From: Patescibacteria group bacterium UBA2773
Lineage (GTDB): Bacteria > Patescibacteriota > Minisyncoccia > Moranbacterales > DUUL01
NCBI GenBank assembly: GCA_002352465.1
Contig: DEIN01000017.1
Location: 777-64,776 of the forward strand
Direction of reading: 5' to 3'
DNA length: 64,000 nt
The notes under the pieces: model-generated
The model's database searches: none
Seen by the model: the letters and a program-made list of their open reading frames with translations, nothing else
Told to the model about the DNA's origin: nothing
Shown: one piece after another, positions 7,828 to 36,659 of the stretch
Numbering within the stretch: the stretch's first letter is position 1
How the letters are laid out: each line of letters opens with the position of its first letter
Made by a program: the position numbers and the translations under genes

Positions 7828-7966
7828 ATAAATTATTTTAAAACATATTAATAGTGCTTTTAGCGAGCACCTTTATTACTGGTTAATATTAGCATGGTCT
7901 GGAAAGTTTGTAAAGATAATGATATTATTAAAACAATTGAAATTGTAAATTATAAATTTGGATCCA

Positions 7967-9735: not shown

Positions 9736-9739
9736 AATT

Positions 9740-23660: not shown

Positions 23661-25910
23661 TTATTGATAATCGAATGTAATTATTTCTTTTTTTTCAGTA
23701 ATTACGAAAATTTTTCTATTTTCAAAATCTATAGAAAAATCATTAGCATCTTTAAATTTTTTGTCTTGAAAAAAAACTTGTTGTCCGTTGTTTTCCGAGA
23801 GCATCAATATCTTACCTTGTTTTTTATCTAAGGCAAATATTTCATTTTTATTTATTTTCACTCGAATTTTATCTGGAACAAAACCTTCTTCGAGGTTGAA
23901 TTCTTTTTGTTGAGTATATTCAAAATATTTTCGTATTTTACCATTGTTAAAGGCGATGTAAATAGAGTCGCTCACATCAAGGCTAATCGCATTGCTAAGA
24001 TCAACTTTTTCTTTTAGCCAGGCTTTAACGACCCCGAATCCGCCCGGTGCTCGAGGATAACGATAGATTTGATTTGATTCTTGATCTAAGAGATAGAGAT
24101 AGGTTAAATAGCTTCCGATTCCAACACTTTTATCTTTAAAATTGGAAGGCATTGCAATAATATTTTTTGAAAAACTGTTAGTGATTGGGCTGTAGGAGTA
24201 AGTTTGATTTTGACTAACTATGAAAATTAATTGCAGGGATTCCATTGAGGATAAATATTGAGGATTTTTAAGTTCTTTCGGGAGTAAAATCTCAGTTTGA
24301 ATGTTGTTTCGAATCGAAAATTTAATTAAACTTTCTTTTTCCGTTAGTAAATATAAATCATTTTTTAAAAAAGTTGAATTTTTAATTTGTCTGTTGAGGG
24401 TTATTAAGGTTCGTAAATTTTTAATTTCAAAATCTATTTTTTTGTCAATGATTTCATTTTTTATTAGCGGTTTATTGATTGATTCTAACTTATTATTTCT
24501 ATTTTTAATTATTAAAGAAAAGAGAGTTATTAAAATTATTAAAATAGAAATTACTATTAAGCTTTTTTTAAAAAAATTGTCTTTAATGTAGATCTTTATT
24601 TTCTTGAAAAATAGTTTTATTTTCTCTGAAAATTTTTCAAAAACGTCATTTCTTGTTGAGATTTTTTTGTTAATTTTAATATCAACCTTAGTTTCTAGGT
24701 TCTTGATAATATTGTCGACTTTATTTTTTTGAGGTAATAATTTCAGAGTTTTTTGAATCGAAGTTCGAAGCTTATTTTTTGCAATTGTCATTTTGTTCTT
24801 ATCAATTTTTTTGCAAAATTTAAGGGTTATTTCTGGAATTTTTTTAAAAAAATCTTTAAGTTTTTCTGATTTTTTTTGAAAAAACTTGTTTTTTAAAGGA
24901 AAAATAAATTTTTCTAAAAATTGGTTATATTTTTCTTTTATGATTCTACCGTTTTCTTTATTCTTTGACTTTAGCTGGGTTTCAGTTTCATCTTCTTTGA
25001 CATATATTTCAGGTTCATTCTCGAAGGGTGATTTATTCGGATCTTCAATTTTAATTTTTTTCTTTTCTAATATGATCGCTTCTTCCGGTTTTTCTTGTTG
25101 GTTCTTTCCTTTTAGCAACTTTTTTTCCTTTTTAGTTTCGCCAAAGAAATTCAAGTTTTTCTCGATTTCAGGATTTTCCTTGGTTTCAATTATTAAGTCT
25201 GGAACAATTTTTGGTTGATTTTTAATGTTTAAAACAATCATTCCTGTTTTTAAAGCTTCATTTTTTAGAGTAGCAGAAATGATATTATCAAATTCGACGG
25301 AATCAAATGTTTTGAAATGTCGGGTCAGTTCTTCTAGCGGTAAAGTGTCAAAAGTTTCTTTTAAAGTGAAGATTATTTTGTTGTTAGCTTCGATTTTTCC
25401 AGCCGAAATAGAAGCAAAAGTCTTCATTGGGTGATATTCTTCGTTTTTGCTAGAAGCACTTTTGATATTGGAAATTTTTTCATTTTTTAAAAATAAAATT
25501 CTACCTTGACCAATTTGAGCGAAATGAATTTCATTTTCACAAATTACGCCGATAGCAGCATTTAAATTCCCCATCCATTCTACGATTTCGTGTTGGGTTA
25601 GTTCTGTCAGAGCCAAATTGATTTTGTGCAAAGCGATTTCAAAACTTTTGCCACAACTTTTATTTTTATTTTTAAAATATTCTTTTTTGATAATTTGAGT
25701 TAGCATATTTGGCAAATAAGCTGAATTTTCACTAGTATCATCAACTTGAATTATTCCAAATATTTTCCCTAATTTTTGTTGTTTAATGTTTTGGCCAACG
25801 GCATCAAAAACATTAAAAAAAGGCCTTAATTTAGGATCTTTAATAACAACTACTTCGAAAGAATCTACTTGTAGACAATCTTTCGATTTGTTCGGTGAAT
25901 CGTTGATCAT
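23661..25910 (-). CDS. Hypothetical 749-aa protein with a K/E-rich low-complexity middle and a single TM helix
   Basis: It is a long ORF at the end of the glycan cluster. A TM segment (LIVISILIILITLFSLII) lies at ~aa 455. No confident domain assignment was made. Confidence 0.4.
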   Translation of the reverse strand: MINDSPNKSKDCLQVDSFEVVVIKDPKLRPFFNVFDAVGQNIKQQKLGKIFGIIQVDDTSENSAYLPNMLTQIIKKEYFKNKNKSCGKSFEIALHKINLALTELTQHEIVEWMGNLNAAIGVICENEIHFAQIGQGRILFLKNEKISNIKSASSKNEEYHPMKTFASISAGKIEANNKIIFTLKETFDTLPLEELTRHFKTFDSVEFDNIISATLKNEALKTGMIVLNIKNQPKIVPDLIIETKENPEIEKNLNFFGETKKEKKLLKGKNQQEKPEEAIILEKKKIKIEDPNKSPFENEPEIYVKEDETETQLKSKNKENGRIIKEKYNQFLEKFIFPLKNKFFQKKSEKLKDFFKKIPEITLKFCKKIDKNKMTIAKNKLRTSIQKTLKLLPQKNKVDNIIKNLETKVDIKINKKISTRNDVFEKFSEKIKLFFKKIKIYIKDNFFKKSLIVISILIILITLFSLIIKNRNNKLESINKPLIKNEIIDKKIDFEIKNLRTLITLNRQIKNSTFLKNDLYLLTEKESLIKFSIRNNIQTEILLPKELKNPQYLSSMESLQLIFIVSQNQTYSYSPITNSFSKNIIAMPSNFKDKSVGIGSYLTYLYLLDQESNQIYRYPRAPGGFGVVKAWLKEKVDLSNAISLDVSDSIYIAFNNGKIRKYFEYTQQKEFNLEEGFVPDKIRVKINKNEIFALDKKQGKILMLSENNGQQVFFQDKKFKDANDFSIDFENRKIFVITEKKEIITFDYQ

Positions 25911-26203
25911 TTTTTTTATTTATAAAAACCATTTTTGAAATAATTTTTTCAAAATAATCTCTTAATTTTATTATATTTATTATATACTATTTTCAGAAAA
26001 AATAAAACAAACTTATTCATTAACATTTTTTAAAGTTATCAAATAGTTTCTTGAGACTGGTTTGAGAGGTTTTTGTCGCTTTAATAGTGATCTTTTTTGC
26101 TGGACATTTTTAAATAAATTTGTTATTGTTAAATTAGTTAAGAATTAATTAAGAAAGTTTATTGCTAATAATTTATTTAGAAAATAAGCTTTTGAAATAA
26201 ACG

Positions 26204-26518
26204 ATGCAAAATAAAAAAGAAGTCAATGAAAGTTCTAAGAAAATAGTCAATTTTCTATTAACTTTTTTTAGTGGATTTATTCAGAAAATTTCAGTTGGTT
26301 TGATTTTGAACGCCAAAAAACAAGTCGAGGAAATTATTTTGCAAATAAAAAGAGGAGTTTTAGCTGGATTTTTTCTGATTTTTGGATTATTTTTTCTGCT
26401 GATTGGATTGGCTATTTATTTGGGTTCTTGGTTGAGTACTGTTCCTGGGAGCGGCTATCTCGCGATTGGATCATTTAGTTTGTTGATGTCTTTGTTGATT
26501 GTTTTTATTAAGAGATGA
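26204..26518 (+). CDS. Small 2-TM membrane protein (YqjE / holin-3_6-like architecture)
   Basis: 104 aa: an amphipathic N-terminus followed by two TM helices. Confidence 0.35.
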   Translation: MQNKKEVNESSKKIVNFLLTFFSGFIQKISVGLILNAKKQVEEIILQIKRGVLAGFFLIFGLFFLLIGLAIYLGSWLSTVPGSGYLAIGSFSLLMSLLIVFIKR

Positions 26519-26547
26519 GTTAAATTATATTTTAAAATATAAATTTT

Positions 26548-26775
26548 ATGAAAAAAATTAAAAAAGTTGAAGATGATTTTTTTGTTAAGAAAAGTCTGAA
26601 TAGTTTTAAGAAGCAATCTAAAGCTAAATTGCAAGAAGCTCAAAAATATGCGAAAAAAAATCCTCAAAAAACTAAAACAATTTTAGCTGGTTTAGGCACG
26701 GTTTTTGCTGCAATTATAGCTTTTCTGATTGGTAAGAAAAAGAAAAGTAAAAATAAAGATCAAGACGAAGATTAA
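26548..26775 (+). CDS. Small C-terminally membrane-anchored protein (YqjD/ElaB-like architecture) with an acidic tail ...DQDED
   Basis: 75 aa: a charged N-terminal helix, one C-terminal TM, then a poly-K and acidic end. Confidence 0.35.
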   Translation: MKKIKKVEDDFFVKKSLNSFKKQSKAKLQEAQKYAKKNPQKTKTILAGLGTVFAAIIAFLIGKKKKSKNKDQDED

Positions 26776-26823
26776 AAGATAATTTTATCGTTGGTTTTTA
26801 ATTTAAGAAGTAATAAAAAATAG

Positions 26824-27495
26824 ATGTATAGCGCTTTTGTGGAATATGCTGTTTCTCAAGGAGTTCCTTTGGGAACAGTGACTTTAATTCTAATGCTTCC
26901 AATAGTGGTTTTGATTATTGCTTTTTTTCGACAAGTGGTAGGAATCAAGGCTTTTGGCATTTATACTCCAGCTTTGATAATTTTTGCTTTTTTGGCCATT
27001 AAAGCCGAGGCTGGTAGTTTTTGGGGTGGAATTCGATACGGAACTGCTATTTTTGGAACGGTCATCGCCGTGGGGACTTTGGCTCGAATTTTTTTAAGAC
27101 GCTTTCGTCTGTTGTATTTGCCTCGAGTAGCAATTGTGATCTCGATTGTTTCTTTGTCAACTTTATTGATGTTAATTTTAGGAGGAATGTTTCAACGGAC
27201 TGGCTTGGCCAGTGTTTCAATTTTTCCAATTTTGATTATGATTACTTTAGTGGAGAAGTTTGTCACGGTTCAAATCGAAAAAGGTGGAAAAGCAGCGGTT
27301 TATCTTTCTTTGGAAACTTTATTTATCTCAATCGTGGGCTATTCAATCGCCAGTTGGGCTTTGTTGATTTTTTATCTTCAACAGTATCCTTGGCTGGTTT
27401 TCGTGGCGATTGTTATAAATATTTTCTTAGGTAAATGGACGGGATTGCGATTGTCCGAAGTTATCAGATTTAAAAAGCTCATCAAAAATGTTTAA
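26824..27495 (+). CDS. 7-TM membrane protein translationally coupled to an ATP-grasp ligase (7TM component of a RimK-like ligase system)
   Basis: 223 aa with ~7 hydrophobic helices. It overlaps the next gene's start by 8 nt. Confidence 0.5.
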   Translation: MYSAFVEYAVSQGVPLGTVTLILMLPIVVLIIAFFRQVVGIKAFGIYTPALIIFAFLAIKAEAGSFWGGIRYGTAIFGTVIAVGTLARIFLRRFRLLYLPRVAIVISIVSLSTLLMLILGGMFQRTGLASVSIFPILIMITLVEKFVTVQIEKGGKAAVYLSLETLFISIVGYSIASWALLIFYLQQYPWLVFVAIVINIFLGKWTGLRLSEVIRFKKLIKNV

Positions 27496-28888
27496 AGCTT
27501 ATCAAAAAAGTAAAACGATATTGGGAATGAATTCTAGGAATTTGACTTTCATTCGACCCAATAATCTTAAGCGAGCCAAGCGTTTGGCTGACAATAAACT
27601 AAAAAGCAAGCGTCTTTTGAAAAAGAACGGAATTCCCGTTCCTGGTTTGATTGCCAAAATTAAAACTAGACAAGATTTGGATAATTTTGATTTTTCTAAG
27701 TTGCCCAGTAGTTTTGTTTTGAAACCGAATATGGGTTTGGGAGGCGATGGAATTTTGGTGGTTTATGGGCGAAAAAAGAATTGTCAAAATATTTGGGTTA
27801 AAGCCGATCGAAGCTTGGTAACCGAGGATGATTTGCGAAATCAAATTAGAAATATTTTGGAAGGTTCATTCTCAAGGACCAGTATTCCAGACATTGCTTT
27901 TTTCGAAGAACGAGTCAAACTTTCTAGGGTTTTCAAGCCCTATTCTTATAAAGGAATTCCAGATGTTCGAGTAATCGTGTATAACAATGTCCCAGTGATG
28001 GCGATGTTGCGGTTGTCCACCAAAGGATCAGAAGGAAAAGCTAATCTTCAATTAGGAGGAATTGGTTGCGGAATTGATATGGCAACTGGCACAACCACTT
28101 CGGCGGTGCAAGGTAAATCTAAGTTAATTGAGTGTATTCCAGGGACCAGGCTTTCATTGAGTGGGATTAGAATTCCTCGATGGCAGGAAATTTTGGAATT
28201 GGCAGTGAAAGCTCAGCAAGTTTCGGGTTTGGGATTTTTAGGGGCGGACGTGGCTTATGATCGAGATGACGGCCCAGTTTTTCTGGAATTAAACGCTCGG
28301 CCGGGGCTTTCAATTCAAATTGCCAATATGGAAGGGCTTTTGACTCGGTTGAAAAGAGTGGAGGGATTGAAAGTTAAATCTGCCAAACACGGAGTTAAAT
28401 TAGCCAAAAATCTTTTTGGAGGAGAAATTGAAGAAGAGTTGGAAGATATTTCTGGAAAGAAAGTAATCGGCGTGGTGGAAAAAATTAAATTGATTGGAAA
28501 AAATGGAGCAGAAAAAGAAGTTGAAGCCAAAATTGACACCGGCGCTTATTCTACTTCAGTTGACATTGAATTGGCTCGAGAACTTGGATTTGAAGGAGTG
28601 ATCGATTATTTTGATAAAATTAAAAAGCCAAAAGAAATAACAAAAAAAGACGGTAAGAATATTATGGAGGATCTTCGGGCAAAATATTTGCATAAAAATA
28701 AAGATTTACTTGATATTGACGTTGTCTATTCTTCTAGCGGAATTACTGTTCGACCAAAAGTGAAAATTAGTTTTGTGATGGACAATGAAACGGTCATCAC
28801 CAGGGCTAATCTCACAGAAAGAGCAGATTTAAAATACCCAGTCATTATTGGCAGGAGGGATCTGAAAAAGTTTTTGGTGGAGGTTTAA
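27488..28888 (+). CDS. RimK-related ATP-grasp ligase (alpha-L-glutamate-ligase-like) fused to a C-terminal retropepsin-like aspartic peptidase domain
   Basis: The N-terminal ~310 aa are ATP-grasp (ILGMNSRNL..KLKSKRLL..VLKPNMGLGGDGI...ELNARPG). The C-terminal ~140 aa carry KIDTGAYSTS (a DTGA active-site motif), RPKV and IIGRRDL, characteristic of the PF05618 RimK-associated retropepsin-like domain. Confidence 0.6.
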   Translation: MFKAYQKSKTILGMNSRNLTFIRPNNLKRAKRLADNKLKSKRLLKKNGIPVPGLIAKIKTRQDLDNFDFSKLPSSFVLKPNMGLGGDGILVVYGRKKNCQNIWVKADRSLVTEDDLRNQIRNILEGSFSRTSIPDIAFFEERVKLSRVFKPYSYKGIPDVRVIVYNNVPVMAMLRLSTKGSEGKANLQLGGIGCGIDMATGTTTSAVQGKSKLIECIPGTRLSLSGIRIPRWQEILELAVKAQQVSGLGFLGADVAYDRDDGPVFLELNARPGLSIQIANMEGLLTRLKRVEGLKVKSAKHGVKLAKNLFGGEIEEELEDISGKKVIGVVEKIKLIGKNGAEKEVEAKIDTGAYSTSVDIELARELGFEGVIDYFDKIKKPKEITKKDGKNIMEDLRAKYLHKNKDLLDIDVVYSSSGITVRPKVKISFVMDNETVITRANLTERADLKYPVIIGRRDLKKFLVEV

Positions 28889-28903
28889 AAATTTAATTAC
28901 ATT

Positions 28904-29863
28904 ATGACAGCTAAAACAGTAGCTAAAACAGCGGCTAAAATAGAATTATTGATTCTTTCTCCGCGAGTATTTTCGGGAAAGGCTGGAAAAACTTTAAATA
29001 TGCTTGAAAATGGTTTGAAAAAAGAAGCGTTGAGTTTTAAAATTTCCACTTTTAAGGAGATGGAGATTTTTATGGAAAAAGGTCAGCTGGATATTTTTTT
29101 TGGAGGGTTGAATCTAAATGAATTCGAGAATATATTTTTTAGAAAAGTCGGTTTTAATAAAGAATTGGCTTTTTTGATTTCAAAATTATCGATTGAAAAA
29201 GGAATAAATTTTATTGATAAGCTTTATGCTCAATTTTATAGTTCTACTAAGCTCACTCAAACATTTTTATTTCACTTAAAAGGGATTAATGCTCCCAAGA
29301 CTTATTTTTCACCAGTTTATGACGAAAAAAAGCTTATTAAGGCTGGTAAATTTTTGGGTTTTCCTTTTGTTGCTAAAGAATGTAATACTTCGCAGGGAGC
29401 AGGCGTATTTCTTGTCGAAAATGAAAATCAAATAAAGGAAAGGATAACAGCGTTTGCGGATAAGCAAATTATTTTGCAAGAATTTATTGAAAATAATTTT
29501 GAATATAGGGTTCTTATTATGGGGGGCGAAATTGTTGATGTTGAAAAAAAGACTAGAGATAAAAATTCAAGTGAATTTAGAAATAATGTTCATTTGGGTG
29601 CAACGGAGGAGTTTTTAGATGTGAAAATTTTTGATGAAAGTGGAAAAGAGTTAGCTTTTAGGGCTTCGAATGCTTTGGATATTCAGATTGCGGGAGTAGA
29701 TATTATTGAAGATTTGAAAGGAAATAGATTCGTTACTGAAGTAAACAGCACTCCAGGCTTTACACATGATGAAAAAATTTCTGATGAAATCCCTAATTTA
29801 ATAAATTTTTTGAAAAAATGGGCAAAAAAAAGTAATTTTTTAGTGTCAAATTTAATATTTTGA
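28904..29863 (+). CDS. ATP-grasp ligase, RimK-like (paralog 2)
   Basis: FPFVAKECNTSQGAGV..., EYRVLIMGGEIV, VDIIED..FVTEVNSTPG: an ATP-grasp fold. Confidence 0.6.
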   Translation: MTAKTVAKTAAKIELLILSPRVFSGKAGKTLNMLENGLKKEALSFKISTFKEMEIFMEKGQLDIFFGGLNLNEFENIFFRKVGFNKELAFLISKLSIEKGINFIDKLYAQFYSSTKLTQTFLFHLKGINAPKTYFSPVYDEKKLIKAGKFLGFPFVAKECNTSQGAGVFLVENENQIKERITAFADKQIILQEFIENNFEYRVLIMGGEIVDVEKKTRDKNSSEFRNNVHLGATEEFLDVKIFDESGKELAFRASNALDIQIAGVDIIEDLKGNRFVTEVNSTPGFTHDEKISDEIPNLINFLKKWAKKSNFLVSNLIF

Positions 29864-29981
29864 ATTAAAAATGTTTTCTGATTTTTTATTAACTGGGGTT
29901 AGAATTTTAACCCTTGGTGGTGATAAAAACAGAAAAAATAAATAAATTAAATTTAGATTTTAATTGTAATTAAATATTTTT

Positions 29982-30878
29982 ATGAAATTTTGTATAATAA
30001 TCTCAGATCCAACGGCTTATGCCCCGGAACGATTAGCGGAAGAAATTAAAAAAAGTGGGCATGAGCTCGCGGTCGTTCATTGGAGCGATATAACATTAAA
30101 CACGGAAAGCAGACAAATTTATTTTGGTTTAAGTAAAGGGGGGTCTTTAAATGATTTTGATTTTATTATTCCAAGAAGTGGAAGATACACTAAAGATCTT
30201 GGAGAAAAAAAGATTCTAAAAGATTATACTTTTTTGTTGAAACTTATTGCTCAATATGAGCCTTTCGCTAAGTATTCATTATTAAATGCTGAATATTACA
30301 GAAATTTGTCTGGAACGGATAAATTGACGCAACAATTTATTTTTGCCTTAAGGAATCTTCCTGGCATTGAGACAAGTTTTAACGGTGAATTCAGCCAATT
30401 TTTAACGGATGAATATCCTTTTGTCGCTAAAACTATTCAGGGGAGTAAAGGAGAAGGCGTGGAAAGAATAGAAAATAAAGAGCAACGGGATATTTTTATT
30501 GGTCAAAATAGAAACAATTTGAATTTTTTTATTAAACAAAAATATTATCAAATAGATTCTGATTATAGAATTTTGGTTTTAGGAGATAAGGTTCTGGGTG
30601 GTATCCGGAGATTTTCTGAGAAAAATCAATGGAAAACTAATTTTTCAGCGGGAGGCAGTGTCGAAAAATATGAAATTGGTAATGACTTGAAAGAAATTGC
30701 TTTAAAAACTGCAAAGTTAATGAATTTAGATTATGTCGGGATAGATTTTCTCAAGGACGGAAATAATTTTAAAATTATTGAAACTAATGCACTTGCTCAA
30801 TTTAAGGGATTTGAATCTGTGAATAAGGAGGTGAATGTTGCTAAGGAGATCATAGATTTTATAATGTTTAAAAAATAA
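29982..30878 (+). CDS. ATP-grasp ligase, RimK-like (paralog 3)
   Basis: YPFVAKTIQGSKGEGV, DYRILVLGDKVLGG, GIDFLKDGNNFKIIETN: an ATP-grasp fold. Confidence 0.6.
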   Translation: MKFCIIISDPTAYAPERLAEEIKKSGHELAVVHWSDITLNTESRQIYFGLSKGGSLNDFDFIIPRSGRYTKDLGEKKILKDYTFLLKLIAQYEPFAKYSLLNAEYYRNLSGTDKLTQQFIFALRNLPGIETSFNGEFSQFLTDEYPFVAKTIQGSKGEGVERIENKEQRDIFIGQNRNNLNFFIKQKYYQIDSDYRILVLGDKVLGGIRRFSEKNQWKTNFSAGGSVEKYEIGNDLKEIALKTAKLMNLDYVGIDFLKDGNNFKIIETNALAQFKGFESVNKEVNVAKEIIDFIMFKK

Positions 30879-30890
30879 AAATTAGTAAAA

Positions 30891-31832
30891 ATGGATAAAA
30901 AAAAGCTAGTTATGTTTTTTGGGAAAAGAAGAAGCGAACCAGATCCTTTTTTGACTTTAGGTAATAAAAGGTCTGTCTATTATGATTTTTTTGATAAAGG
31001 GTTGGAGTTGGGATTAAGAGTTTTTTTGGCCAACGGTAGAGAATCTTACAGAAAAGGACTTGTTTTTGAAAATGTTCTAGAGTACAAAGGGAAGGAAATT
31101 TTTGAAAAAAACAAAGAAGAAATAACAGCCGATTTTGTGTATGATAGAAGCGGGGGGATATCTTTTCCAAATAAAAAAATAAGTTCAAAAGTAATAAATG
31201 GGATTGAATTTAAAAAAATTTGTTGCGATAAATTTAAGACTTATAAATTTTTGGGAGATAGCTACATGAAGAAAACTTATTCTATAAAAAATATTATCGA
31301 ACTTAAGGAAATGTTTAAAAAGATTAATCTTAATAATAAATATTTTTTGAAACCAAAAGATGGGTTAGGAGGTAAAGGAATTTTTTTTGGTTATGCAAAA
31401 GATCTTCTCTCCATCAACTTGAATAAAAAAGATTGTTATGTTTTGCAAGAATTTATAGACACTTCATCAGGAATCGAAGGAATCGTAAAAGGACTTCACG
31501 ACTTAAGAATTGTTTTTATTGGAGAAAAGATTGTCTGGTCTCACGTTAGAAGCCCTAGGGAAGGGACTTTTCTTTCGAATGTTTCTCAAGGTGGAAGGAT
31601 TATTGAAATTGATCCGAAAAGAATTCCAAAGAAAATTTTAGAAAAAGCGACATTAATACAAAAATTAATAACTTCAAAATATGGTAAATCAATTTTTTCT
31701 ATTGATTTTGGAATTGAAAATGGAGAACCTTTTGTTTTTGAATTAAATGATAGAATTGGTTTTCCGACAGAAAAAATGGAAAGTAAAACAATTTTTATAA
31801 ACGAATTATATAATTTGCTATCGAAAATTTAA
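30891..31832 (+). CDS. ATP-grasp ligase, RimK-like (paralog 4)
   Basis: YFLKPKDGLGGKGIFF, DLRIVFIGEKIV, FSIDFGIENGEPFVFELN: an ATP-grasp fold. Confidence 0.55.
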   Translation: MDKKKLVMFFGKRRSEPDPFLTLGNKRSVYYDFFDKGLELGLRVFLANGRESYRKGLVFENVLEYKGKEIFEKNKEEITADFVYDRSGGISFPNKKISSKVINGIEFKKICCDKFKTYKFLGDSYMKKTYSIKNIIELKEMFKKINLNNKYFLKPKDGLGGKGIFFGYAKDLLSINLNKKDCYVLQEFIDTSSGIEGIVKGLHDLRIVFIGEKIVWSHVRSPREGTFLSNVSQGGRIIEIDPKRIPKKILEKATLIQKLITSKYGKSIFSIDFGIENGEPFVFELNDRIGFPTEKMESKTIFINELYNLLSKI

Positions 31833-31929
31833 ATCATAGTAAAGGAATAAAAATCTTTGCAAAAAAATCTTAAAAATGCGATAATGGGAAAGATAAAAGA
31901 GAATTAAATATTTCTTAACTTTTTAGGTT

Positions 31930-34437
31930 ATGGTGAAGAAAATTTTGAATAAAATAATTGATTTTGTGTTTAGCAAAAAGATTCTGAAATTTTTTGGAAT
32001 CCTTTTCGGTATTGGATTTTTGATAGTGGCGGGAGTGTTTATCTTTTTTATGAAAGATTTGCCGGATCCAGCTAAAATTAATAAAAGAACGATTAATGAA
32101 TCAACTAAAATTTATGACCGAACAGGACAGCATTTGTTGTATGAAATTCATGGAGAAGAGAATCGAACTTTGATTTCGATTGATCAGGTTCCGGATATTG
32201 TTAAGTACGCAACGATTGCCTTGGAAGATCAAGATTTTTATAATCACAATGGAGTTGATTTTCGGGGAATTATCCGAGCGGCAATCAAAGATGTTCTACA
32301 AAGAAAAATTGCTCAAGGTGGTTCAACTATCACTCAGCAATTTGTGAAAAACTCGATTTTGACTTCGGAGAAAAGAGTTTCTCGAAAAGTTAAAGAGATT
32401 GTGCTGGCTTTGGAAATTGAACAGAAATTTTCCAAAGAAGAGATTTTGCAAATGTATTTAAACGAAATTCCTTATGGTTCGAATGCCTATGGAATTGAAG
32501 CGGCTTCTCAGACTTTTTTTGGAAAACATGCTAGTGAGTTGACTTTGGGTCAATCAGTTCTTTTGGCTTCCCTGCCAAATGCGCCGACTTTTTATTCACC
32601 TTTTGGTTCTAATACTGACCGATTGGTAGTTCGTTGGAAATCAGCTTTGAGTAAGATGGCTAACTTGGGATATATCACTGAAGAACAGGCGAAAAATGTA
32701 GCAGAAGAAGATATTTTGGATCAAATTCAATTAGTTAAAGATGATATTAGGGCGCCTCATTTTGTGATGCACGTGAAAGAGCAATTAGTGGAGGAATTTG
32801 GAGAAGATGAAATGGAAAAAATTGGAATGAGTGTCTATACGACTTTGGATTGGAATTATCAACAAATTGCTGAAGAAGTGTTACGAGAAAAGGTTGATGA
32901 GATTGGTGAGCAATACGGTTTTTCTAATGCAGCTTTAGTGGCGCTTAATCCTCAAAATGGTCAAATTTTGGCGATGGTTGGTTCTAAAGATTATTTCAAT
33001 AAAGAAATCGATGGAAATGTCAACGTGGCTACTCGCTTCAGACAACCGGGGTCTTCTTTTAAACCTTATGTTTATGCTCAAGCCTTGGAGATGGGTTATA
33101 CTCGTAAAAGTATCACTTTTGACGTAGAAACTAATTTTAATACTAACGATGATGAGGAGGACGATTATGTTCCTCGAAATTATTTAGGAAACTTTAACGG
33201 CCCAGTCCAGTTGGAAGATGCTTTGGCGACTTCGTTGAATATTCCAGCGGTTAAATTTTTATATTTAGTCGGGCCAAAAAAAGCGGTTAATTTTGCTAAA
33301 TCAATGGGAATTGAGGGTTTAAATGAACCAGATAAATATGGTTTGTCCTTGGTGTTGGGAGGCGGAGAAGTTAAATTATTAAATCACGTTGGAGCTTTTG
33401 GTGTTTTTGCTAATGAAGGGAAAAAGCAAGAAAAAACTGCTATTTTAAGAATTGAAGACTCTAAAGGAGAAATTATTAGAGAATTTCAAAAACAGGAAGG
33501 GAAACAAATAATTAAAAGAGAAACTGCGCTAGAGATAACTGATATTCTTTCGGACAATAAACTTCGGGCGCCATTGTTTGGTACAAACAATCTTTTGAAT
33601 ATTCCTGGTCATCAAGTAGCGGCTAAAACTGGAACAACCAATGAATATCGAGACGGTTGGTTGTTGGGAGCAACACCTTCATTGGCGATAGGCGTTTGGA
33701 CGGGAAATAATGATAATACCGCAATGAAAGAGGGTTCCAGTGGTTCTAGTACAGCTGGCCCGATTTGGAATGCTTTTATGAAAAGAGCCTTGGAAAATAA
33801 ACAGGCAGAAAAGTTTAATGGTCCGGAAGAATTTGAAAAAATTGGGATTGATATTTTAGACGGAGAATTAGAAGTGAAGCAGGAACTGAAAGTTTGCGAA
33901 TATGAAAAAGATAAGTTTTGTTTAGAAAATAGTTCTTGTCCTGATAGTTTAGTGGAGAAGAAAGATTTTTATGATGCTCATACTATTTTGTATTATGTTG
34001 ATAAAGATAGTCCGACCAAAGAGGACAGCAATTCTAAAAGTGACTCGCAATATAAAGGTTGGCAAAAAGGTGTTGATAAATGGGTTGAAGATCAAGAAAA
34101 GGACGAAGAGCAAAGAGAGCTTCCCGAAAAAGAGTGCAAGGATGATTATTTTGAAGACTACAAAGTTGAAATTAAAATAACTAGTCCAAGCAACGATGAT
34201 ACGATTGACAGCAAGGATTTGAAAGTTTCTACTAAAATAGACGGGGATGGCAAAGTCAAAGAGGTTGAATTTTATATTGATGGTAAATCGGTTGGCAAAG
34301 ATGGCAATTCGCCTTATAATCTCAGCTATGAAATTCCAGACAGTAAAAATGGGGGAAAAATAGAAATTAGGGCGAAGGTTAGGGATGATGATGGTGGGGA
34401 TGACGAAGACAAAATAAAAATCAAAGTAAATTTTTAG
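31930..34437 (+). CDS. Class A penicillin-binding protein (PBP1A-type transglycosylase/transpeptidase) with a C-terminal Ig-like extension
   Basis: GT51 motifs (EDQDFYNHNGVD, GGSTITQQ). The transpeptidase region is present (SSFKPYVY...KTGTTN). The C-terminal ~200 aa are acidic and beta-rich. Confidence 0.85.
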   Translation: MVKKILNKIIDFVFSKKILKFFGILFGIGFLIVAGVFIFFMKDLPDPAKINKRTINESTKIYDRTGQHLLYEIHGEENRTLISIDQVPDIVKYATIALEDQDFYNHNGVDFRGIIRAAIKDVLQRKIAQGGSTITQQFVKNSILTSEKRVSRKVKEIVLALEIEQKFSKEEILQMYLNEIPYGSNAYGIEAASQTFFGKHASELTLGQSVLLASLPNAPTFYSPFGSNTDRLVVRWKSALSKMANLGYITEEQAKNVAEEDILDQIQLVKDDIRAPHFVMHVKEQLVEEFGEDEMEKIGMSVYTTLDWNYQQIAEEVLREKVDEIGEQYGFSNAALVALNPQNGQILAMVGSKDYFNKEIDGNVNVATRFRQPGSSFKPYVYAQALEMGYTRKSITFDVETNFNTNDDEEDDYVPRNYLGNFNGPVQLEDALATSLNIPAVKFLYLVGPKKAVNFAKSMGIEGLNEPDKYGLSLVLGGGEVKLLNHVGAFGVFANEGKKQEKTAILRIEDSKGEIIREFQKQEGKQIIKRETALEITDILSDNKLRAPLFGTNNLLNIPGHQVAAKTGTTNEYRDGWLLGATPSLAIGVWTGNNDNTAMKEGSSGSSTAGPIWNAFMKRALENKQAEKFNGPEEFEKIGIDILDGELEVKQELKVCEYEKDKFCLENSSCPDSLVEKKDFYDAHTILYYVDKDSPTKEDSNSKSDSQYKGWQKGVDKWVEDQEKDEEQRELPEKECKDDYFEDYKVEIKITSPSNDDTIDSKDLKVSTKIDGDGKVKEVEFYIDGKSVGKDGNSPYNLSYEIPDSKNGGKIEIRAKVRDDDGGDDEDKIKIKVNF

Positions 34438-34439
34438 AA

Positions 34440-34550
34440 GGGCGAAACCAGCTGTTCGGCACATTTCTTTGTCAAAAACTCCGTTGCTTTTCGATGTACC
34501 TCGGTACATCTCATACGCTACTCGTTTTTTCCTCGAACTGCACTCAAACA
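34440..34550. repeat. Dispersed repeat family 1 copy (REP/MITE-like, with conserved hairpin gatgtacc-tc-ggtacatc)
   Basis: ggcacatttctttgtcaaaaactccgttgcttttcgatgtacctcggtacatctcatacgctactcgtttttcctcgaactgcactcaaa, 3 nt after the PBP stop. Confidence 0.75.
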
Positions 34551-34573
34551 ACTGATTTCTGTAAATCGTTGAT

Positions 34574-34936
34574 TTGATTGAAAAGATAAATTTTAATAAA
34601 TTTAAAAATATGGAAAATAATCAAAATAGTTGTTCAATTTGTCATCGGGAAATTTTGCCGGAGTATTATTTTTGTCCAAATTGTGGAAATAACTTAAGAG
34701 AAAAACCGGCTGAAATAACGATGGTGATGCAAATTGGTTGGTATGCCTTAGCAATTTTTTTACCGCCTTTTGGTTTGTGGCCAGGGATTAAATATTTGAT
34801 TAAAAAAGATGTTCAAGCCAGAAGAATGGGTTTAATGATGATCATTCTTACTTTGGTGTCAACTATTTTTATGATTTGGTCGATTTTTAAACTTTTGGGA
34901 AGTTATCTTGAAATATTAAATGGTGCATTGTATTGA
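34574..34936 (+). CDS. Zinc-ribbon plus 2-TM small membrane protein
   Basis: CSICHRE...CPNCGN followed by two hydrophobic helices. The start could instead be the internal Met at ~34610. Confidence 0.4.
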   Translation: MIEKINFNKFKNMENNQNSCSICHREILPEYYFCPNCGNNLREKPAEITMVMQIGWYALAIFLPPFGLWPGIKYLIKKDVQARRMGLMMIILTLVSTIFMIWSIFKLLGSYLEILNGALY

Positions 34937-34999
34937 GTAAAATAAAGTTATTTAAAAAGAACGTTCTATAGAACGTTCTTTTTAAATTATTGAGAGTAA

Positions 35000-35383
35000 C
35001 TATTTTTTTAAGGAATTTCGTATTTCTCTTAATAGTAAAATGTTTTCGGTTGGTTTGATTGGTTTTGCTTTTTCTTTTTTCTCTAATTTATTAAGTTGTT
35101 TGATTACAACGAAAATCACAAAAGCAATGATTAGAAAATCAATGACAGAGTTAATAAAAAGTCCGTAGTTGAGTGTGACGGCAGGATTTGTCGCAGTGGC
35201 TTTCTTGAGAGTCAAAGCCAGGTTGGAGAAATCAATTCCTCCAAGTAGGACTCCAATTAGAGGCATAATGATGTCTGAGACAAGCGAGCTGACGATTTTA
35301 CCAAAAGCGGTTCCGATAATAACTCCAACTGCTAAATCAATCACGTTGCCCTTGAGGGCAAATTTTTTAAATTCTTTAAGCAT
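35000..35383 (-). CDS. mscL: Large-conductance mechanosensitive channel
   Basis: [41 protein letters not shown]... is near-identical in pattern to the MscL N-terminus. The internal Met start is preferred over the longer ORF. Confidence 0.9.
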
Positions 35384-35612
35384 AAATTTATTTTTAATTA
35401 AATAGTCTAGGGTTGTTTCCTTCAAAGTTTTAGTTAGTTGTTATTTATTTCACTGAATTAATCATTAAGTACACTCTTATTTGACAGATAATTCGCCATT
35501 ATATTACACAAACAACAACTGACTAAGGCAATGTTCTTAATAGAATTGATGATATTATGATTTTATCATTTAGGGATTAAATAAGCAATTGGTTTGAGTT
35601 GTGAATAAAAAT

Positions 35613-36131
35613 CTAGTCTATTTTAATGTCAAAAGCATCTAGCAATCGAACAACTTCAGGGAAGGAGAATTTGGTTTTTTTGAGCAGATTGCCGCTGGGA
35701 TTGATGTTGTAATTTTTAGCGTTTTTAAAAGAAGCGGAGCTTAAATTGGCATTTTGAAAACGAGTTTTTTTGAATTCAGAATGTTCAAAATTGGCCCCTG
35801 TCAAATCAGTATTGACAAAATCGCATTCAAAGATTTGGCAATTTTCAAATTTGGTTTTTTTTAGTTTTAAATCGGAAAAAGTGCACATTGAAATCAGGCA
35901 ATTTTCAAAATTAAAACTTAAAATGAGATGACTACAATCCAAAAAATTCAAGCCGAGCAATTTGCAATCTTTGAAATTGACATTTTGAATTCGAGCATTT
36001 CGGAGATTGACATTAGAAAGATTGCAGTCGATGAAAGAGCAATCAATGAAAGTTGAATTTTTAAAAGATTTATCGGTAAAATCTTGGTTTTTGAAAATAT
36101 GATTTTCAAAATTTTTATTTTGATGAGACAT
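35613..36131 (-). CDS. Pentapeptide-repeat protein
   Basis: Tandem A(D/N)LxX pentapeptides run throughout (NLSNVNLRNARIQNVNFKDCKL...). Confidence 0.75.
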   Translation of the reverse strand: MSHQNKNFENHIFKNQDFTDKSFKNSTFIDCSFIDCNLSNVNLRNARIQNVNFKDCKLLGLNFLDCSHLILSFNFENCLISMCTFSDLKLKKTKFENCQIFECDFVNTDLTGANFEHSEFKKTRFQNANLSSASFKNAKNYNINPSGNLLKKTKFSFPEVVRLLDAFDIKID

Positions 36132-36294
36132 TTATTTAATTAAAATATTTTGGTTAATTTTATCACAAAAGAGGCAAAAAATAAATATCTTTTGTTTGAT
36201 TAAATAAAAAGAGAATAGTCTTGACTATTTAGCTATAAAATCATATAATATTTTTTGTTGTGATAAAACTATTTTTTTGCTATTTTAAATTTAT

Positions 36295-36367
36295 GGGCGC
36301 ATAGCTCAGTTGGTAGAGCAACGGCCTTTTAAGCCGATGGTCGGGGGTTCAAATCCCTCTGCGCCCA
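36295..36367 (+). tRNA. tRNA-Lys (anticodon UUU)
   Basis: The cloverleaf folds: a 7-bp acceptor stem (GGGCGCA/TGCGCCC), D-stem GCTC/GAGC, anticodon loop CTTTTAA, T-loop TTCAAAT. CCA is not encoded. Confidence 0.9.
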
Positions 36368-36373
36368 CAAAAA

Positions 36374-36394
36374 AGACCCACAGGGTCTTTTTTC
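36374..36394 (+). terminator. Hairpin followed by a T6 run 3' of tRNA-Lys
   Basis: agaccc-aca-gggtct followed by tttttt. Confidence 0.6.
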
Positions 36395-36396
36395 TT

Positions 36397-36416
36397 TGGG
36401 CGCAGAGGGATTTGAA
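36397..36416. repeat. Inverted copy of the tRNA-Lys 3' end (T-arm plus acceptor)
   Basis: tgggcgcagagggatttgaa is the exact reverse complement of ttcaaatccctctgcgccca. Confidence 0.8.
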
Positions 36417-36533
36417 AGACGTAGGTGCAAGGTTGAGCGCTGGCGAGGAATTAAAGAGAGTTTGGCGAGCTTGGGCAGGGAGCGCTTAGTGAAAACAAGC
36501 CTTTAGGCGATGTTTGAATTTAGCGACTCGACG

Positions 36534-36552
36534 TCAAATCCCTCCGCGCCCA
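36534..36552. repeat. Direct copy of the tRNA-Lys 3' end (18/19 identity), att-site-like
   Basis: tcaaatccctccgcgccca versus tcaaatccctctgcgccca, 166 bp downstream of the tRNA. Confidence 0.75.
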
Positions 36553-36597
36553 TTTTTAGATATGCCCATAAAATAAAATCTTGATTTTTTTCTTGAT

Positions 36598-36629
36598 TTA
36601 CGTAATCATTTACGTAAATGATTACGTAA
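36598..36629. promoter_or_regulatory. 32-bp perfect palindrome with three TTACGTAA boxes (candidate operator overlapping the promoter of the downstream AbrB-like gene)
   Basis: ttacgtaa-tcat-ttacgtaa-atga-ttacgtaa. It is preceded by a direct repeat cttgattt x2 (a -35-like TTGATT) and lies 30 nt upstream of the ATG at 36660. Confidence 0.5.
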
Positions 36630-36659
36630 ATAGTTTTAAATAAAAATTAAAATAAAAAA

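What the first reader, a model, noticed from the sequence alone, without database searches (positions are those of the whole stretch)
26204..31832. 7TM protein plus four tandem RimK-like ATP-grasp ligases (one fused to a retropepsin-like DTGA peptidase domain), next to the class A PBP
A single plus-strand cluster holds nine genes in order. Two small membrane proteins come first, then a 7-TM protein whose stop overlaps the next start by 8 nt (translational coupling). Four consecutive ATP-grasp paralogs follow, and the class A PBP sits directly after them. The first ligase has the alpha-L-glutamate-ligase-related architecture. Its C-terminus is fused to a ~140-aa retropepsin-like domain (KIDTGAYSTS...RPKV...IIGRRDL).

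The known comparison is the predicted RimK-like system of 7TM(-inactive transglutaminase) + ATP-grasp + retropepsin-like peptidase, thought to modify or ligate peptides. That system normally has one ligase and a separate peptidase gene. Here the ligase and peptidase are fused and three extra ATP-grasp paralogs follow, which suggests a multi-step ATP-dependent amide-ligation pathway. Possible products are a C-terminal poly-amino-acid tail, a short non-ribosomal peptide, or an envelope modification, built and then processed or exported at the membrane.

The small upstream protein ending ...KKKKSKNKDQDED is a speculative acceptor, since RimK extends acidic C-termini. The position beside a PBP and downstream of a surface-glycan cluster suggests a cell-envelope role. 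No characterised system with this composition is known to me.
Basis: partly seen in the sequence, partly recalled or inferred. Interest (0 to 1): 0.8.

Follow-up and report, generated by a model that had tools for sequence, protein, structure and literature searches.

The report
Multi-ligase Rlo-like peptide system in Patescibacteria
This is a real, widely conserved gene cluster of tiny uncultured (Patescibacteria) bacteria: a membrane protein, a peptide-building enzyme fused to a peptide-cutting enzyme, and several more peptide-building enzymes. It is a new, expanded version of a system known only genetically from Pseudomonas, and its chemical product is still unknown.

Summary
Window 26204-34437 carries eight co-directional genes: two small membrane proteins, a 7TM protein (PF14402), four ATP-grasp ligases and a class A PBP. 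The first ligase (RloC/TIGR02291 type) is fused to a DTGA retropepsin domain.

- **Not an artefact or recent duplication.** The locus recurs in independent assemblies. The four ligases share at most 25% identity.
- **Conserved core.** The 7TM gene followed by the fused ligase-peptidase gene occurs in 160 further loci. These come from Moranbacteria, Woesebacteria and an unplaced third lineage.
- **Variable ligase set.** Zero to five extra ligases follow the fusion gene. Relatives also carry MATCAP carboxypeptidase, YdjC, GT4 and cyanophycin-synthetase-like genes, and some of these are fused to the core enzyme.
- **PBP1A adjacency is lineage-specific.** It is near-universal in Moranbacteria (62/63) but rare or absent elsewhere (3/17 and 0/10).
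- **The small upstream proteins are not core.** The acidic tail of the proposed acceptor is not conserved.

Best reading: this is a Patescibacterial variant of the Rlo/RimK-RimB logic, in which cytoplasmic ligases build an acidic peptide at a membrane partner and a fused peptidase trims it. An envelope destination is plausible but unproven. Verdict: new variant of a known kind, moderate-to-high interest.

The parts
26204..26518 (+). Small membrane protein A (104 aa, 2-3 TM segments). It is specific to the closest subclade and is not part of the conserved core.
   Evidence: ORF. No Pfam or NCBIfam family. Hydropathy. Homologues found in only about 8 of 80 genome loci.
26548..26775 (+). Small tail-anchored protein B (75 aa): a Lys-rich N-terminal helix, one TM segment, and the tail KKKKSKNKDQDED. 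It is subclade-specific, and it is unlikely to be the acceptor.
   Evidence: ORF and no family hit. Homologues share Y-x-KKNP-x-K...G-x-GA and a TM segment, but their C-termini vary: KGKKK, KNKNRN, KDKK, KRKKK.
26824..27495 (+). 7TM membrane protein of the RloB type, consisting of the 7TM module only with no transglutaminase-like domain. Predicted N-terminus out and C-terminus in. It is always immediately upstream of D.
   Evidence: PF14402 1e-29; the NF052267 RloB model matches only its positions 297-508 of 508. Topology. AF2 model has pLDDT 80. Found upstream of D in all 80 genome loci and in 70 of 74 metagenome loci. Rare 7TM-ligase fusion proteins exist.
27488..28420 (+). D, N-terminal part: an RloC-type ATP-grasp amidoligase (residues 1-311). 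The N-terminal peptide ILGMNSRNLxFIRPNN is invariant and is predicted to be disordered.
   Evidence: PF14397 220 bits. TIGR02291 285.7 bits, below its cut-off of 314.2, covering 8-314 of 317. Catalytic residues are conserved. The model resembles ArgX/LysX, RimK, Ddl and CphA1. Invariant columns.
28415..28456 (+). Invariant acidic linker FGGEIEEELEDISG between the ligase and peptidase domains. It is flexible in the model.
   Evidence: Translation. Invariant F310 G311 G312 I314 E315 E316 E317 E319 S322 G323. pLDDT below 50 for residues 312-324. Present in 24/27 type I loci, 4/34 type III and 0/17 type II.
28457..28888 (+). D, C-terminal part: a RimB/RloA-type retropepsin-like aspartic peptidase domain (DTGA at 28535-28546). 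It has no signal peptide, so it is cytoplasmic. With one catalytic Asp per chain, it must dimerise to be active.
   Evidence: PF05618 30 bits (cut-off 27); RloA3, RloA and RloA2 models at 1e-8 to 1e-6. PDB 9g59/9g58 at about 1e-3, with aligned K-x-DTGA, E-R-P and D-R positions. D350-A353, R422 and R445 are invariant.
28904..29863 (+). E: a RimK-family ATP-grasp ligase ('E-type'). This type is rare in Moranbacteria but typical of Woesebacteria operons, where a G-type gene follows it directly.
   Evidence: PF08443 101 bits; TIGR00768 109.9 bits, below its cut-off of 143.4. Catalytic residues. E-type directly followed by G-type in 13 of 16 loci.
29982..30878 (+). F: a RimK-family ATP-grasp ligase with a RimK pre-ATP-grasp N-domain ('F-type'). 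Of the four, it is the closest to true RimK.
   Evidence: PF08443 93.9 bits and PF18030; TIGR00768 130.1 bits, below 143.4. Full-length match to E. coli RimK 5zct at 1e-18. F-type found in 58 of 160 loci.
30891..31832 (+). G: a divergent ATP-grasp ligase ('G-type'). This is the commonest accessory ligase of the family.
   Evidence: PF14397 38 bits, PF08443 34 bits, PF02655 33 bits. Only a weak PDB match to RimK, E = 0.016. Catalytic residues. G-type found in 61 of 160 loci.
31930..34437 (+). H: a class A penicillin-binding protein (glycosyltransferase + transpeptidase + C-terminal Big_7 domain). It lies co-directionally downstream of the ligase array in Moranbacteria.
   Evidence: TIGR02074 524 bits, above its cut-off of 508.75; PF00912, PF00905 and PF17957. 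Found downstream of D in 62/63 informative genome loci, 60 of them on the same strand. The median gap before the PBP is 94 nt.

Best explanation
This locus is the Patescibacterial (Moranbacteria) version of the Rlo/RimK-RimB type of system. It is a membrane-associated machine that builds and trims a non-ribosomal, probably acidic (glutamate-type), peptide chain.

Proposed mechanism:
1. Four cytoplasmic ATP-grasp amidoligases (D's N-domain, E, F and G) activate a terminal carboxylate as an acyl-phosphate. Each adds an amino acid, and together they extend an acceptor.
2. The RloC-type ligase D works at the cytoplasmic face of its 7TM partner C. The evidence is translational coupling, invariable adjacency and occasional fusion.
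3. D's fused retropepsin domain becomes active only when two D chains pair. It cuts or sizes the acidic chain, as RimB does for RimK products and RloA does for polyglutamate.
4. The product is then presented to, or passed through, the 7TM protein towards the envelope.
5. The set of accessory ligases is cassette-like. It differs between lineages, so the composition of the product probably varies.
6. In Moranbacteria the module sits directly upstream of PBP1A and is probably co-transcribed with it.

Shown here: domain identities, intact catalytic residues, the conserved gene order, and the fusions.

Inferred: the nature of the substrate and product, the interaction between 7TM and ligase, export, and any link to peptidoglycan.
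For: - **Domain assignments** come.
- **Catalytic residues.** All four ligases keep K100, K141, G148, G150, R189, N213, G217, D248, E260 and N262 (E. coli RimK numbering).
- **Peptidase domain.** It has an invariant DTGA and invariant basic residues. These align with K-x-D, E-R-P and D-R in the RloA-type structure 9g59. In RloA, basic residues including R114 and R137 coordinate polyglutamate, and the enzyme cuts runs of 8 or more Glu (PMC12239564).
- **Genetics in P. aeruginosa.** Deleting rloB or rloC suppresses the defects of the triple rloA mutant. Ligase, 7TM protein and peptidase therefore act in one pathway, and the ligase/7TM product is harmful if left uncut.
- **7TM linkage.** The 7TM gene is immediately upstream of D in all 80 genome loci and in 70/74 metagenome loci, often with overlapping stop and start codons. 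Three of 150 family representatives are 7TM-ligase fusions.
- **Accessory enzymes fused to D in relatives.** 46 of 150 representatives carry a MATCAP carboxypeptidase, and others carry YdjC or a second ATP-grasp. Loci of relatives also hold cyanophycin-synthetase-like G- and M-domain genes. All of these are template-free peptide-chain builders or trimmers.
- **Peptidase swap.** Type II proteins lost DTGA (17/17) but gained MATCAP. This argues that a peptidase activity is an obligatory partner of the ligase.
- **Localisation.** D, E, F and G have no TM segment or signal peptide.
Against: - No product, substrate or acceptor is identified, and amino-acid specificity cannot be read from the sequence.
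- D scores below the curated TIGR02291 cut-off. E and F score below the TIGR00768 cut-off.
- The peptidase is cytoplasmic here, unlike secreted RloA, so the Pseudomonas model (export first, then cleavage) does not transfer directly.
- The PBP linkage is lineage-specific.
- GT4 and YdjC partners in relatives hint that a sugar-containing substrate may be involved, rather than a pure peptide.
Confidence: 0.45

Rival explanations
1. Peptidoglycan-precursor tailoring. The ligases add amino acids to free carboxylates of the stem peptide (UDP-MurNAc-peptide or lipid II) or build a side branch. The peptidases trim the result, and the adjacent PBP1A polymerises the modified precursor.
For: - PBP1A lies downstream and co-directional in 62/63 Moranbacteria genome loci, with a median gap of 94 nt.
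- Accessory genes in relatives fit a substrate combining an N-acetyl-sugar with a peptide that has a free C-terminus. These are a YdjC deacetylase, a MATCAP-type carboxypeptidase, a Mur-ligase-like protein and GT4.
- rlo mutants of P. aeruginosa show altered cell shape and beta-lactam sensitivity (discussion).
- ATP-grasp ligases that modify PG precursors are known, for example Ddl and D-Asp ligase. This last point is from my own knowledge.
Against: - PBP adjacency is lost in Woesebacteria (3/17) and in type II lineages (0/10), although the core is kept.
- The window already has a FemAB + Mur ligase pair elsewhere for bridge building.
- The best family matches are RimK/RloC, not Ddl.
- A 7TM partner is not needed for a cytoplasmic precursor step.
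Confidence: 0.17
2. Cytoplasmic protein-tail modification of the RimK/RimB kind. [quoted passage not shown]
For: - F matches E. coli RimK over its full length (1e-18).
- The peptidase is cytoplasmic like RimB.
- MATCAP partners recall the ligase/carboxypeptidase cycle on tubulin C-termini (the analogy is from my own knowledge).
Against: - No rpsF is present in the window or in any locus except one. That one S6, on a type III contig, ends ...KNKRRGD with no Glu tail.
- The obligatory 7TM partner and the three or more distinct ligase subfamilies are unexplained by S6 modification.
- E and F score below the RimK-family cut-off.
Confidence: 0.13
3. Synthesis of an intracellular storage or osmolyte polymer, polyglutamate- or cyanophycin-like. 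The fused peptidase would mobilise the polymer, and the 7TM protein would act as an osmotic or membrane sensor.
For: - Cyanophycin-synthetase-like G-domain genes (E = 1e-87) occur in 37 of 160 loci, and M-domain genes (E = 9e-56) occur in 9.
- The Rlo system is linked to osmotic stress.
- MscL lies 0.5 kb downstream of the PBP in the window.
Against: - The window itself has no CphA-like ligase; its best score is 39 bits against a cut-off of 850.
- GT4 and YdjC partners and the membrane coupling are not expected for a storage granule.
- No cyanophycinase homologue was seen.
Confidence: 0.1
4. A RiPP/graspetide or other secondary-metabolite cluster, in which ATP-grasp enzymes cyclise or extend a ribosomal precursor peptide (for example A or B) and the peptidase removes a leader.
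For: - Graspetide clusters do exist in CPR bacteria (PMC8939145).
- The D model has distant structural similarity to PsnB.
- Two small ORFs precede the cluster.
Against: - A and B are membrane proteins, absent from about 90% of loci, with non-conserved termini.
- No conserved small ORF accompanies the core.
- The ligases belong to the RimK/RloC families, not to graspetide branches.
- The described CPR graspetide loci have different partners: TPR proteins, 'cluster 23' and SPASM.
Confidence: 0.04

Closest known systems
rloABC operon of Pseudomonas aeruginosa (Lormand et al. 2025, mBio, PMC12239564)
   Same: - An RloC-type ATP-grasp (TIGR02291/PF14397).
- An RloB-type 7TM module (PF14402).
- A retropepsin-like DTG peptidase (PF05618).
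- All three are encoded together.
- The basic residues that bind polyglutamate in RloA align with invariant basic residues here.
   Different: - Here the peptidase is fused to the C-terminus of the ligase and has no signal peptide, so it is cytoplasmic rather than secreted.
- The 7TM protein lacks the periplasmic inactive transglutaminase domain.
- Three further ATP-grasp ligases follow.
- The host is a Patescibacterium, whereas 96% of RloB hits were proteobacterial according to the paper.
- D scores below the TIGR02291 cut-off.
RimK-RimB(-RimA) ribosomal protein S6 glutamylation system
   Same: - RimK-family ligases: F resembles E. coli RimK end to end.
- A cytoplasmic retropepsin-like partner that counteracts the ligase.
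- Template-free C-terminal addition of glutamate is the chemistry expected.
   Different: - This system has an obligatory 7TM partner and several distinct ligase subfamilies.
- Ligase and peptidase are fused.
- There is no evidence for an S6 acceptor.
- E and F score below the RimK-family cut-off.
- No RimA is present.
Predicted '7TM-inactive transglutaminase + RimK-like ATP-grasp + retropepsin-like peptidase' system (Iyer, Abhiman, Burroughs & Aravind 2009, the source of Pfam PF14397/PF14402). Recalled from memory; the paper could not be read.
   Same: The same three protein families occur in one gene neighbourhood.
   Different: - The architecture is fused.
- The transglutaminase domain is lost.
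- The locus is expanded by variable ligase cassettes and by MATCAP, YdjC, GT4 and CphA-like partners.
Cyanophycin synthetase CphA1
   Same: It is a template-free builder of a poly-amino-acid chain that combines an ATP-grasp (G) domain with a Mur-ligase-like (M) domain. Related loci carry split or fused homologues of both domains.
   Different: The window itself has no CphA-like gene. CphA1 has no 7TM or retropepsin partner.
TTL / MATCAP tubulin tyrosination-detyrosination cycle (an analogy only)
   Same: An ATP-grasp ligase that adds residues to a C-terminus is paired with a MATCAP-family metallocarboxypeptidase. In about 30% of family representatives both activities are in one polypeptide.
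   Different: The window's own protein has the retropepsin domain, not MATCAP. The substrate is unknown, and the system is bacterial and membrane-coupled.

Membership tests
Rlo system (rloABC) | RloC-type ATP-grasp ligase (TIGR02291 / PF14397) | tested here: inconclusive
   PF14397 scores 220 bits, well above its cut-off of 31.4. TIGR02291 is the best NCBIfam hit and covers 8-314 of 317, but its 285.7 bits fall below the curated cut-off of 314.2.
Rlo system (rloABC) | RloB: a 7TM module fused to a periplasmic inactive transglutaminase domain | tested here: not met
   Only the 7TM module is present (223 aa). PF14402 scores 104 bits. NF052267 matches only its positions 297-508 of 508, at 79 bits against a cut-off of 900. 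All 120 closest homologues are 199-238 aa and carry PF14402 only.
Rlo system (rloABC) | A separate, secreted RloA retropepsin with an N-terminal signal peptide | tested here: not met
   The peptidase domain is residues ~325-466 of the ligase polypeptide. The protein has no hydrophobic segment; its maximum 19-aa hydropathy is 1.05.
Rlo system (rloABC) | Catalytic DTG motif and basic substrate-channel residues | tested here: met
   D350-T-G-A353, R422 and R445 are invariant and K348 is at least 90% conserved in 24 sequences. These positions align with K-x-DTGA, E-R-P and D-R of PDB 9g59.
RimK-RimB system | RimK-family alpha-L-glutamate ligase (TIGR00768) | tested here: inconclusive
   E scores 109.9 bits and F scores 130.1 bits, against a cut-off of 143.4. 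PF08443 scores 101 and 93.9 bits, above its cut-off of 21. F matches E. coli RimK at 1e-18 over its full length.
RimK-RimB system | Ribosomal protein S6 with a Glu-rich C-terminus as acceptor | not testable with these tools
   There is no rpsF in the window. The single S6 found, on a related type III contig, ends KNKRRGD.
Cyanophycin synthetase | ATP-grasp G domain plus Mur-ligase-like M domain scoring as CphA | tested here: not met
   The best window score is 39 bits (E) against a cut-off of 850. Homologues exist only in related loci.
Graspetide / RiPP cluster | A conserved precursor peptide gene next to the ATP-grasp gene | tested here: not met
   A and B are membrane proteins restricted to about 8 of 80 genome loci. 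No other conserved small ORF accompanies the core.
Class A PBP | Glycosyltransferase 51 plus transpeptidase domains | tested here: met
   TIGR02074 scores 524.2 bits, above its cut-off of 508.75. PF00912 is at 4e-61 and PF00905 at 1.5e-24.
Known anti-phage defence systems | A match to any PADLOC model | tested here: not met
   No hits for A-G or for the upstream 749-aa protein.

The most novel reading that the evidence does not exclude
Patescibacteria use this module to make a non-ribosomal acidic peptide polymer whose composition varies with the ligase cassettes. The polymer would be delivered via the 7TM protein to the cell wall, either as a wall polyanion or as a peptidoglycan-linked peptide, with PBP1A co-expressed in Moranbacteria. 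This would be a previously unrecognised class of envelope polymer. It would also identify the still-unknown product of Rlo systems in general.
Probability: 0.2. Interest if true: 0.8.

Novelty: new variant of a known kind. Interest (0 to 1): 0.55.

Why it matters
**The open question in Pseudomonas.** The Rlo system affects osmotic tolerance, beta-lactam sensitivity, cell shape and biofilm formation. Nobody knows what its ligase makes or what its 7TM protein does.

**What the Patescibacterial versions add.** They are a natural experiment with many informative variants:
- The peptidase is fused to the ligase.
- The transglutaminase domain is dispensable.
- The retropepsin can be replaced by a MATCAP carboxypeptidase.
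- The partners include RimK-like and cyanophycin-synthetase-like chain builders, a YdjC deacetylase and a GT4 transferase.

Together these narrow the product to a peptide, or glycopeptide, chain with a free C-terminus that is built and trimmed at the membrane.

**For CPR biology.** The module is one of the few conserved multi-enzyme biosynthetic modules in very small genomes. It matched in 454 stretches of the species-representative genome set. It also sits beside the cell-wall synthase in one whole order. Both make it a good candidate for an envelope or host-interaction function.

Tried and rejected
- **B as RimK-type acceptor: rejected.** The tail is not conserved and the gene is absent from most loci.
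- **Recent tandem duplication or collapsed assembly: rejected.** Ligase pairs share at most 25% identity, and the locus is identical in four archives.
- **Defence system: rejected.** No PADLOC hit.
- **Regulatory RNA: none found.** Rfam found nothing in 25000-37000 except tRNA-Lys.
- **Promoter/terminator scan: uninformative** in this AT-rich DNA. It gave 45 promoter-like sites against 33 expected and no convincing internal terminator.
- **A correction to my own reading.** I first read the ~590-aa proteins in relatives as E+F double ligases. They are an F-type RimK plus an unknown ~310-aa C-terminal domain.
- **Envelope context in Woesebacteria: rejected as general evidence.** The MreB-WecG/TagA-UppS context recurs in only 2-6 of the type III loci.
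- **Literature.** The Iyer et al. 2009 amidoligase paper could not be retrieved, so statements about it rest on memory.
- **S6 as acceptor: could not be assessed.** No rpsF is present in the window.

Full report
**1. The observation**

The 7TM gene C (26824-27495) overlaps the start of D (27488) by 8 nt.

Profile searches confirm every predicted family:
- C is PF14402 (7TM_transglut, 1e-29).
- D is PF14397 and TIGR02291 (3.8e-85, residues 7-311) plus PF05618 and the RloA models (residues 322-466).
- E and F are RimK-family ligases. F also has the RimK pre-ATP-grasp domain and matches E. coli RimK over its whole length (1e-18).
- G is a divergent ATP-grasp.
- H is a class A PBP scoring above the curated cut-off.

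DTGA is at 28535-28546. The window has about 32% GC.

The closest homologues are annotated as Candidatus Moranbacteria/Moraniibacteriota, within Patescibacteria. The identical locus occurs in ENA, Logan, NCBI and JGI assemblies, so it is not an assembly artefact.

Two corrections apply. There are eight genes, not nine. The four ligases are not close paralogs: E-F share 25.5% identity, and all other pairs are not significant by BLAST. This excludes a recent duplication.

**2. Catalytic competence**

I aligned D's ligase domain, E, F and G with E. coli RimK. K100, K141, G148, G150, R189, N213, G217, D248, E260 and N262 are invariant in all four. These positions include the canonical ATP- and Mg-binding residues of the fold, as I know them.

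None of D, E, F or G has a hydrophobic segment or signal peptide, so all are cytoplasmic.

The AF2 model of D (pLDDT 77) has an ATP-grasp domain resembling ArgX/LysX, RimK, Ddl and CphA1. It also has a separate beta-rich C-terminal domain.

That C-terminal domain matches the 'putative ATP-dependent zinc protease domain' (PF05618-type) structures 9g59 and 9g58 at the sequence level. In a 24-sequence alignment, D350-T-G-A353, R422 and R445 are invariant and K348 is at least 90% conserved. They align with K-x-DTGA, E-R-P and D-R of 9g59.

In RloA, basic residues around the catalytic Asp coordinate polyglutamate, and the enzyme cuts runs of at least eight Glu (PMC12239564).

**3. Conservation (genome set)**

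A scan of one genome per species found 454 stretches encoding a relative of D. The best 80 were all full-length fusions at 57-81% identity.

I called ORFs in these loci and labelled them with profiles made from the window's proteins.
- Every locus has the 7TM gene immediately upstream of D, often overlapping it.
- PBP1A lies downstream of D in 62 loci, 60 of them on the same strand.
- Seventeen loci are truncated. Only one locus with at least 7 kb of downstream sequence lacks PBP1A.
- The gene before the PBP is co-directional in 57/60 loci, with a median gap of 94 nt.

Between D and the PBP lie zero to about six genes, drawn from a recurring tool-box:
- G-type ligase, in 43 of 80 loci.
- F-type RimK, in 36.
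- A cyanophycin-synthetase G-domain-like ligase, in 22 (TIGR02068 positions 160-471, E = 1e-87).
- GT4 glycosyltransferase, in 11.
- MATCAP/DUF1704 metallocarboxypeptidase, in 10.
- YdjC deacetylase, in 8.
- An unassigned ~619-aa protein, in 8.
- A ~484-aa biotin-carboxylase-like ATP-grasp, in 6.
- GNAT, in 6.
- A cyanophycin-synthetase M-domain-like Mur ligase, in 5 (E = 9e-56).

The window's E-type occurs in only 3 other loci of this set.

The flanks are less conserved than the PBP link. RuvC lies upstream in 55/77 loci, and the commonest gene after the PBP appears in 28/58.

The window's upstream neighbours (A, B, the 749-aa protein, UDP-glucose dehydrogenase) occur only in its closest subclade.

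**4. Beyond Moranbacteria**

An exhaustive search of 50%-identity representatives gave 2157 relatives, 406 of them below 1e-30. Among the top 150, the architectures were as follows:
- 46 have ligase + retropepsin + MATCAP (about 785 aa).
- Two have ligase + retropepsin + a second ATP-grasp.
- One has ligase + retropepsin + YdjC.
- Three are 7TM + ligase fusions.
- Many are unfused RloC-like proteins of about 310 aa.

A metagenome scan seeded with the triple fusions returned 80 further loci. They fall into three types.

| Type | D architecture | Lineage | 7TM upstream | PBP downstream | Extra ligases | DTGA |
|---|---|---|---|---|---|---|
| I | ~465 aa | Moranbacteria | 25/26 | 14/17 | usually | 27/27 kept |
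| III | ~427-445 aa, shorter retropepsin | Candidatus Woesebacteria by source names | 29/31 | 3/17 | 19/23 | 32/34 kept |
| II | ~785 aa, MATCAP fusion | not assigned | 16/17, mostly ~510 aa (RloB-sized) | 0/10 | 0/11 | 17/17 lost |

Type III loci typically form a tight 7TM-D-E-type-G-type operon with gene junctions ranging from a 4-nt overlap to an 11-nt gap.

Across all loci, a G-type gene directly follows the E-type gene in 13/16 cases.

Three conclusions follow:
- The universal core is the 7TM gene plus the RloC-like ligase with a retropepsin domain that is either active or replaced by MATCAP.
- Multi-ligase arrays are shared by two Patescibacterial classes.
- PBP adjacency is specific to Moranbacteria.

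**5. What is not part of it**

B's homologues share a Y-x-KKNP-x-K...G-x-GA motif and a TM segment, but their C-termini vary (KGKKK, KNKNRN, KDKK). The acidic tail DQDED is therefore not conserved. A and B are absent from about 90% of loci. The acceptor idea is not supported.

Other negative results:
- There is no PADLOC hit.
- There is no Rfam element.
- No conserved precursor-like small ORF accompanies the core.
- The CPR graspetide loci described in PMC8939145 have different partners.

**6. How it most likely works**

The known relatives set the logic.
- RimK adds glutamates to a C-terminus and RimB cuts them off.
- In P. aeruginosa, loss of the three RloA peptidases causes osmotic, antibiotic, biofilm and shape defects.
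- Deleting rloB or rloC suppresses those defects fully or partly.
- So the ligase and the 7TM protein make something that must be cut.

Here the same three activities are present, but the peptidase is welded to the ligase on the cytoplasmic side. It is therefore more RimB-like, serving sizing or turnover before hand-off.

Its replacement by a MATCAP carboxypeptidase in type II argues that trimming of a free C-terminus is intrinsic to the system.

The accessory enzymes that recur in the loci, some of them even fused to D, are template-free chain builders (RimK-like, CphA-like) or modifiers of N-acetyl sugars (YdjC, GT4). The product is thus a peptide, or possibly a glycopeptide, chain whose make-up varies by lineage.

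The 7TM protein is N-out and C-in. Its basic cytoplasmic tail sits next to D's invariant N-terminal peptide ILGMNSRNLxFIRPNN, which is predicted to be disordered. I infer a docking interaction between them.

Whether the 7TM protein exports the product is unknown, because its fold gave no decisive match.

**7. Rivals**

- **Peptidoglycan-precursor tailoring.** This is favoured by the PBP linkage and by the YdjC, MATCAP and Mur-like partners. It is weakened by the loss of PBP linkage outside Moranbacteria and by the presence of a FemAB + Mur ligase pair elsewhere in the window.
- **S6-type protein tail modification.** This fits F and the cytoplasmic peptidase, but not the obligatory 7TM partner. 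The one S6 recovered has no Glu tail.
- **Storage or osmolyte polymer.** This fits the CphA-like genes in relatives but not the window's own gene set.
- **RiPP cluster.** This lacks a precursor.

**8. Comparison and novelty**

The locus works like Rlo/RimK-RimB but fails two defining features of rloABC: the transglutaminase domain of RloB and a separate secreted RloA. It also scores below the curated cut-offs for RloC and RimK.

I found no paper describing the Patescibacterial fused, multi-ligase form or its PBP linkage. I rate it a new variant of a known kind.

Interest is moderate to high. The locus is real, widespread and uncharacterised, and its natural variants constrain the unknown product of a clinically relevant system. 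No function has been demonstrated.

Noticed in passing
window 28415-28456: The acidic linker FGGEIEEELEDISG lies between the ligase and retropepsin domains. It is invariant in 24 sequences and present in 24/27 Moranbacteria-type proteins, but in only 4/34 Woesebacteria-type and 0/17 MATCAP-type proteins. RloA/RimB-type peptidases bind Glu runs, so it could be a pseudo-substrate or a self-cleavage site.
   Followed up: partly
L088-L106, L161, L167 (for example L096 8441-12331): This is a two-gene variant. A ~510-aa RloB-sized 7TM protein is followed by a ~785-aa protein with an ATP-grasp, a retropepsin domain that has lost DTGA (17/17) and a MATCAP metallocarboxypeptidase with an intact HExxH. 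No extra ligases and no PBP are nearby.
   Followed up: partly
L047 12392-13663; L064 4011-4997; L113 (853-aa ORF after D): Related loci contain split cyanophycin-synthetase-like genes: a G-domain ATP-grasp (E = 1e-87) and an M-domain Mur-ligase-like protein (E = 9e-56). In L113 they are fused into one 853-aa protein.
   Followed up: partly
window 8785-11023: A FemAB-family gene (316 aa) sits directly upstream of a Mur ligase (427 aa), just after RuvA (7958-8536). This suggests the organism builds tRNA-dependent peptidoglycan cross-bridges.
   Followed up: no
window 23661-25910 (-): A 749-aa Lys-rich protein with no Pfam family at E <= 0.01. It is divergently transcribed from A/B and is syntenic with them only in the closest subclade, where it is 749-878 aa.
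   Followed up: partly
L001 9424-11196 and similar ~590-613-aa ORFs (L009, L045, L065, L074, L076): These are F-type RimK ligases carrying an unknown ~310-aa helical C-terminal domain. The only hit is a sub-threshold match to DUF3541 (E = 0.001).
   Followed up: partly
L009, L011, L013, L016, L019, L051 and others (titles): Many MAG records that carry this Moranbacteria-type locus are titled 'uncultured Bdellovibrionales', 'Micavibrio' or 'Bathyarchaeia'. These are probably taxonomic mislabels of the bins.
   Followed up: no
window 34950-34987: A terminator-like inverted repeat (17-pair stem, G-T pairs allowed, 4-nt loop) lies between the convergent zinc-ribbon membrane ORF (34574-34936) and the MscL gene (35000-35425). 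It looks like a bidirectional terminator closing the PBP transcription unit.
   Followed up: no
L168 3426-10683; L169 116-10703: In two Woesebacteria contigs the 7TM-D-E-G operon follows MreB, a WecG/TagA-type glycosyltransferase, UppS (in L169 only) and a 71-73-aa HTH protein. An overlapping 183-188-aa unknown ORF follows the operon. This context recurs in only 2-6 of the other type III loci.
   Followed up: yes
L121 1336-1653 (-): Ribosomal protein S6 on a contig that carries a type III system ends ...KNKRRGD. It lacks the Glu-Glu tail that RimK extends in E. coli.
   Followed up: partly
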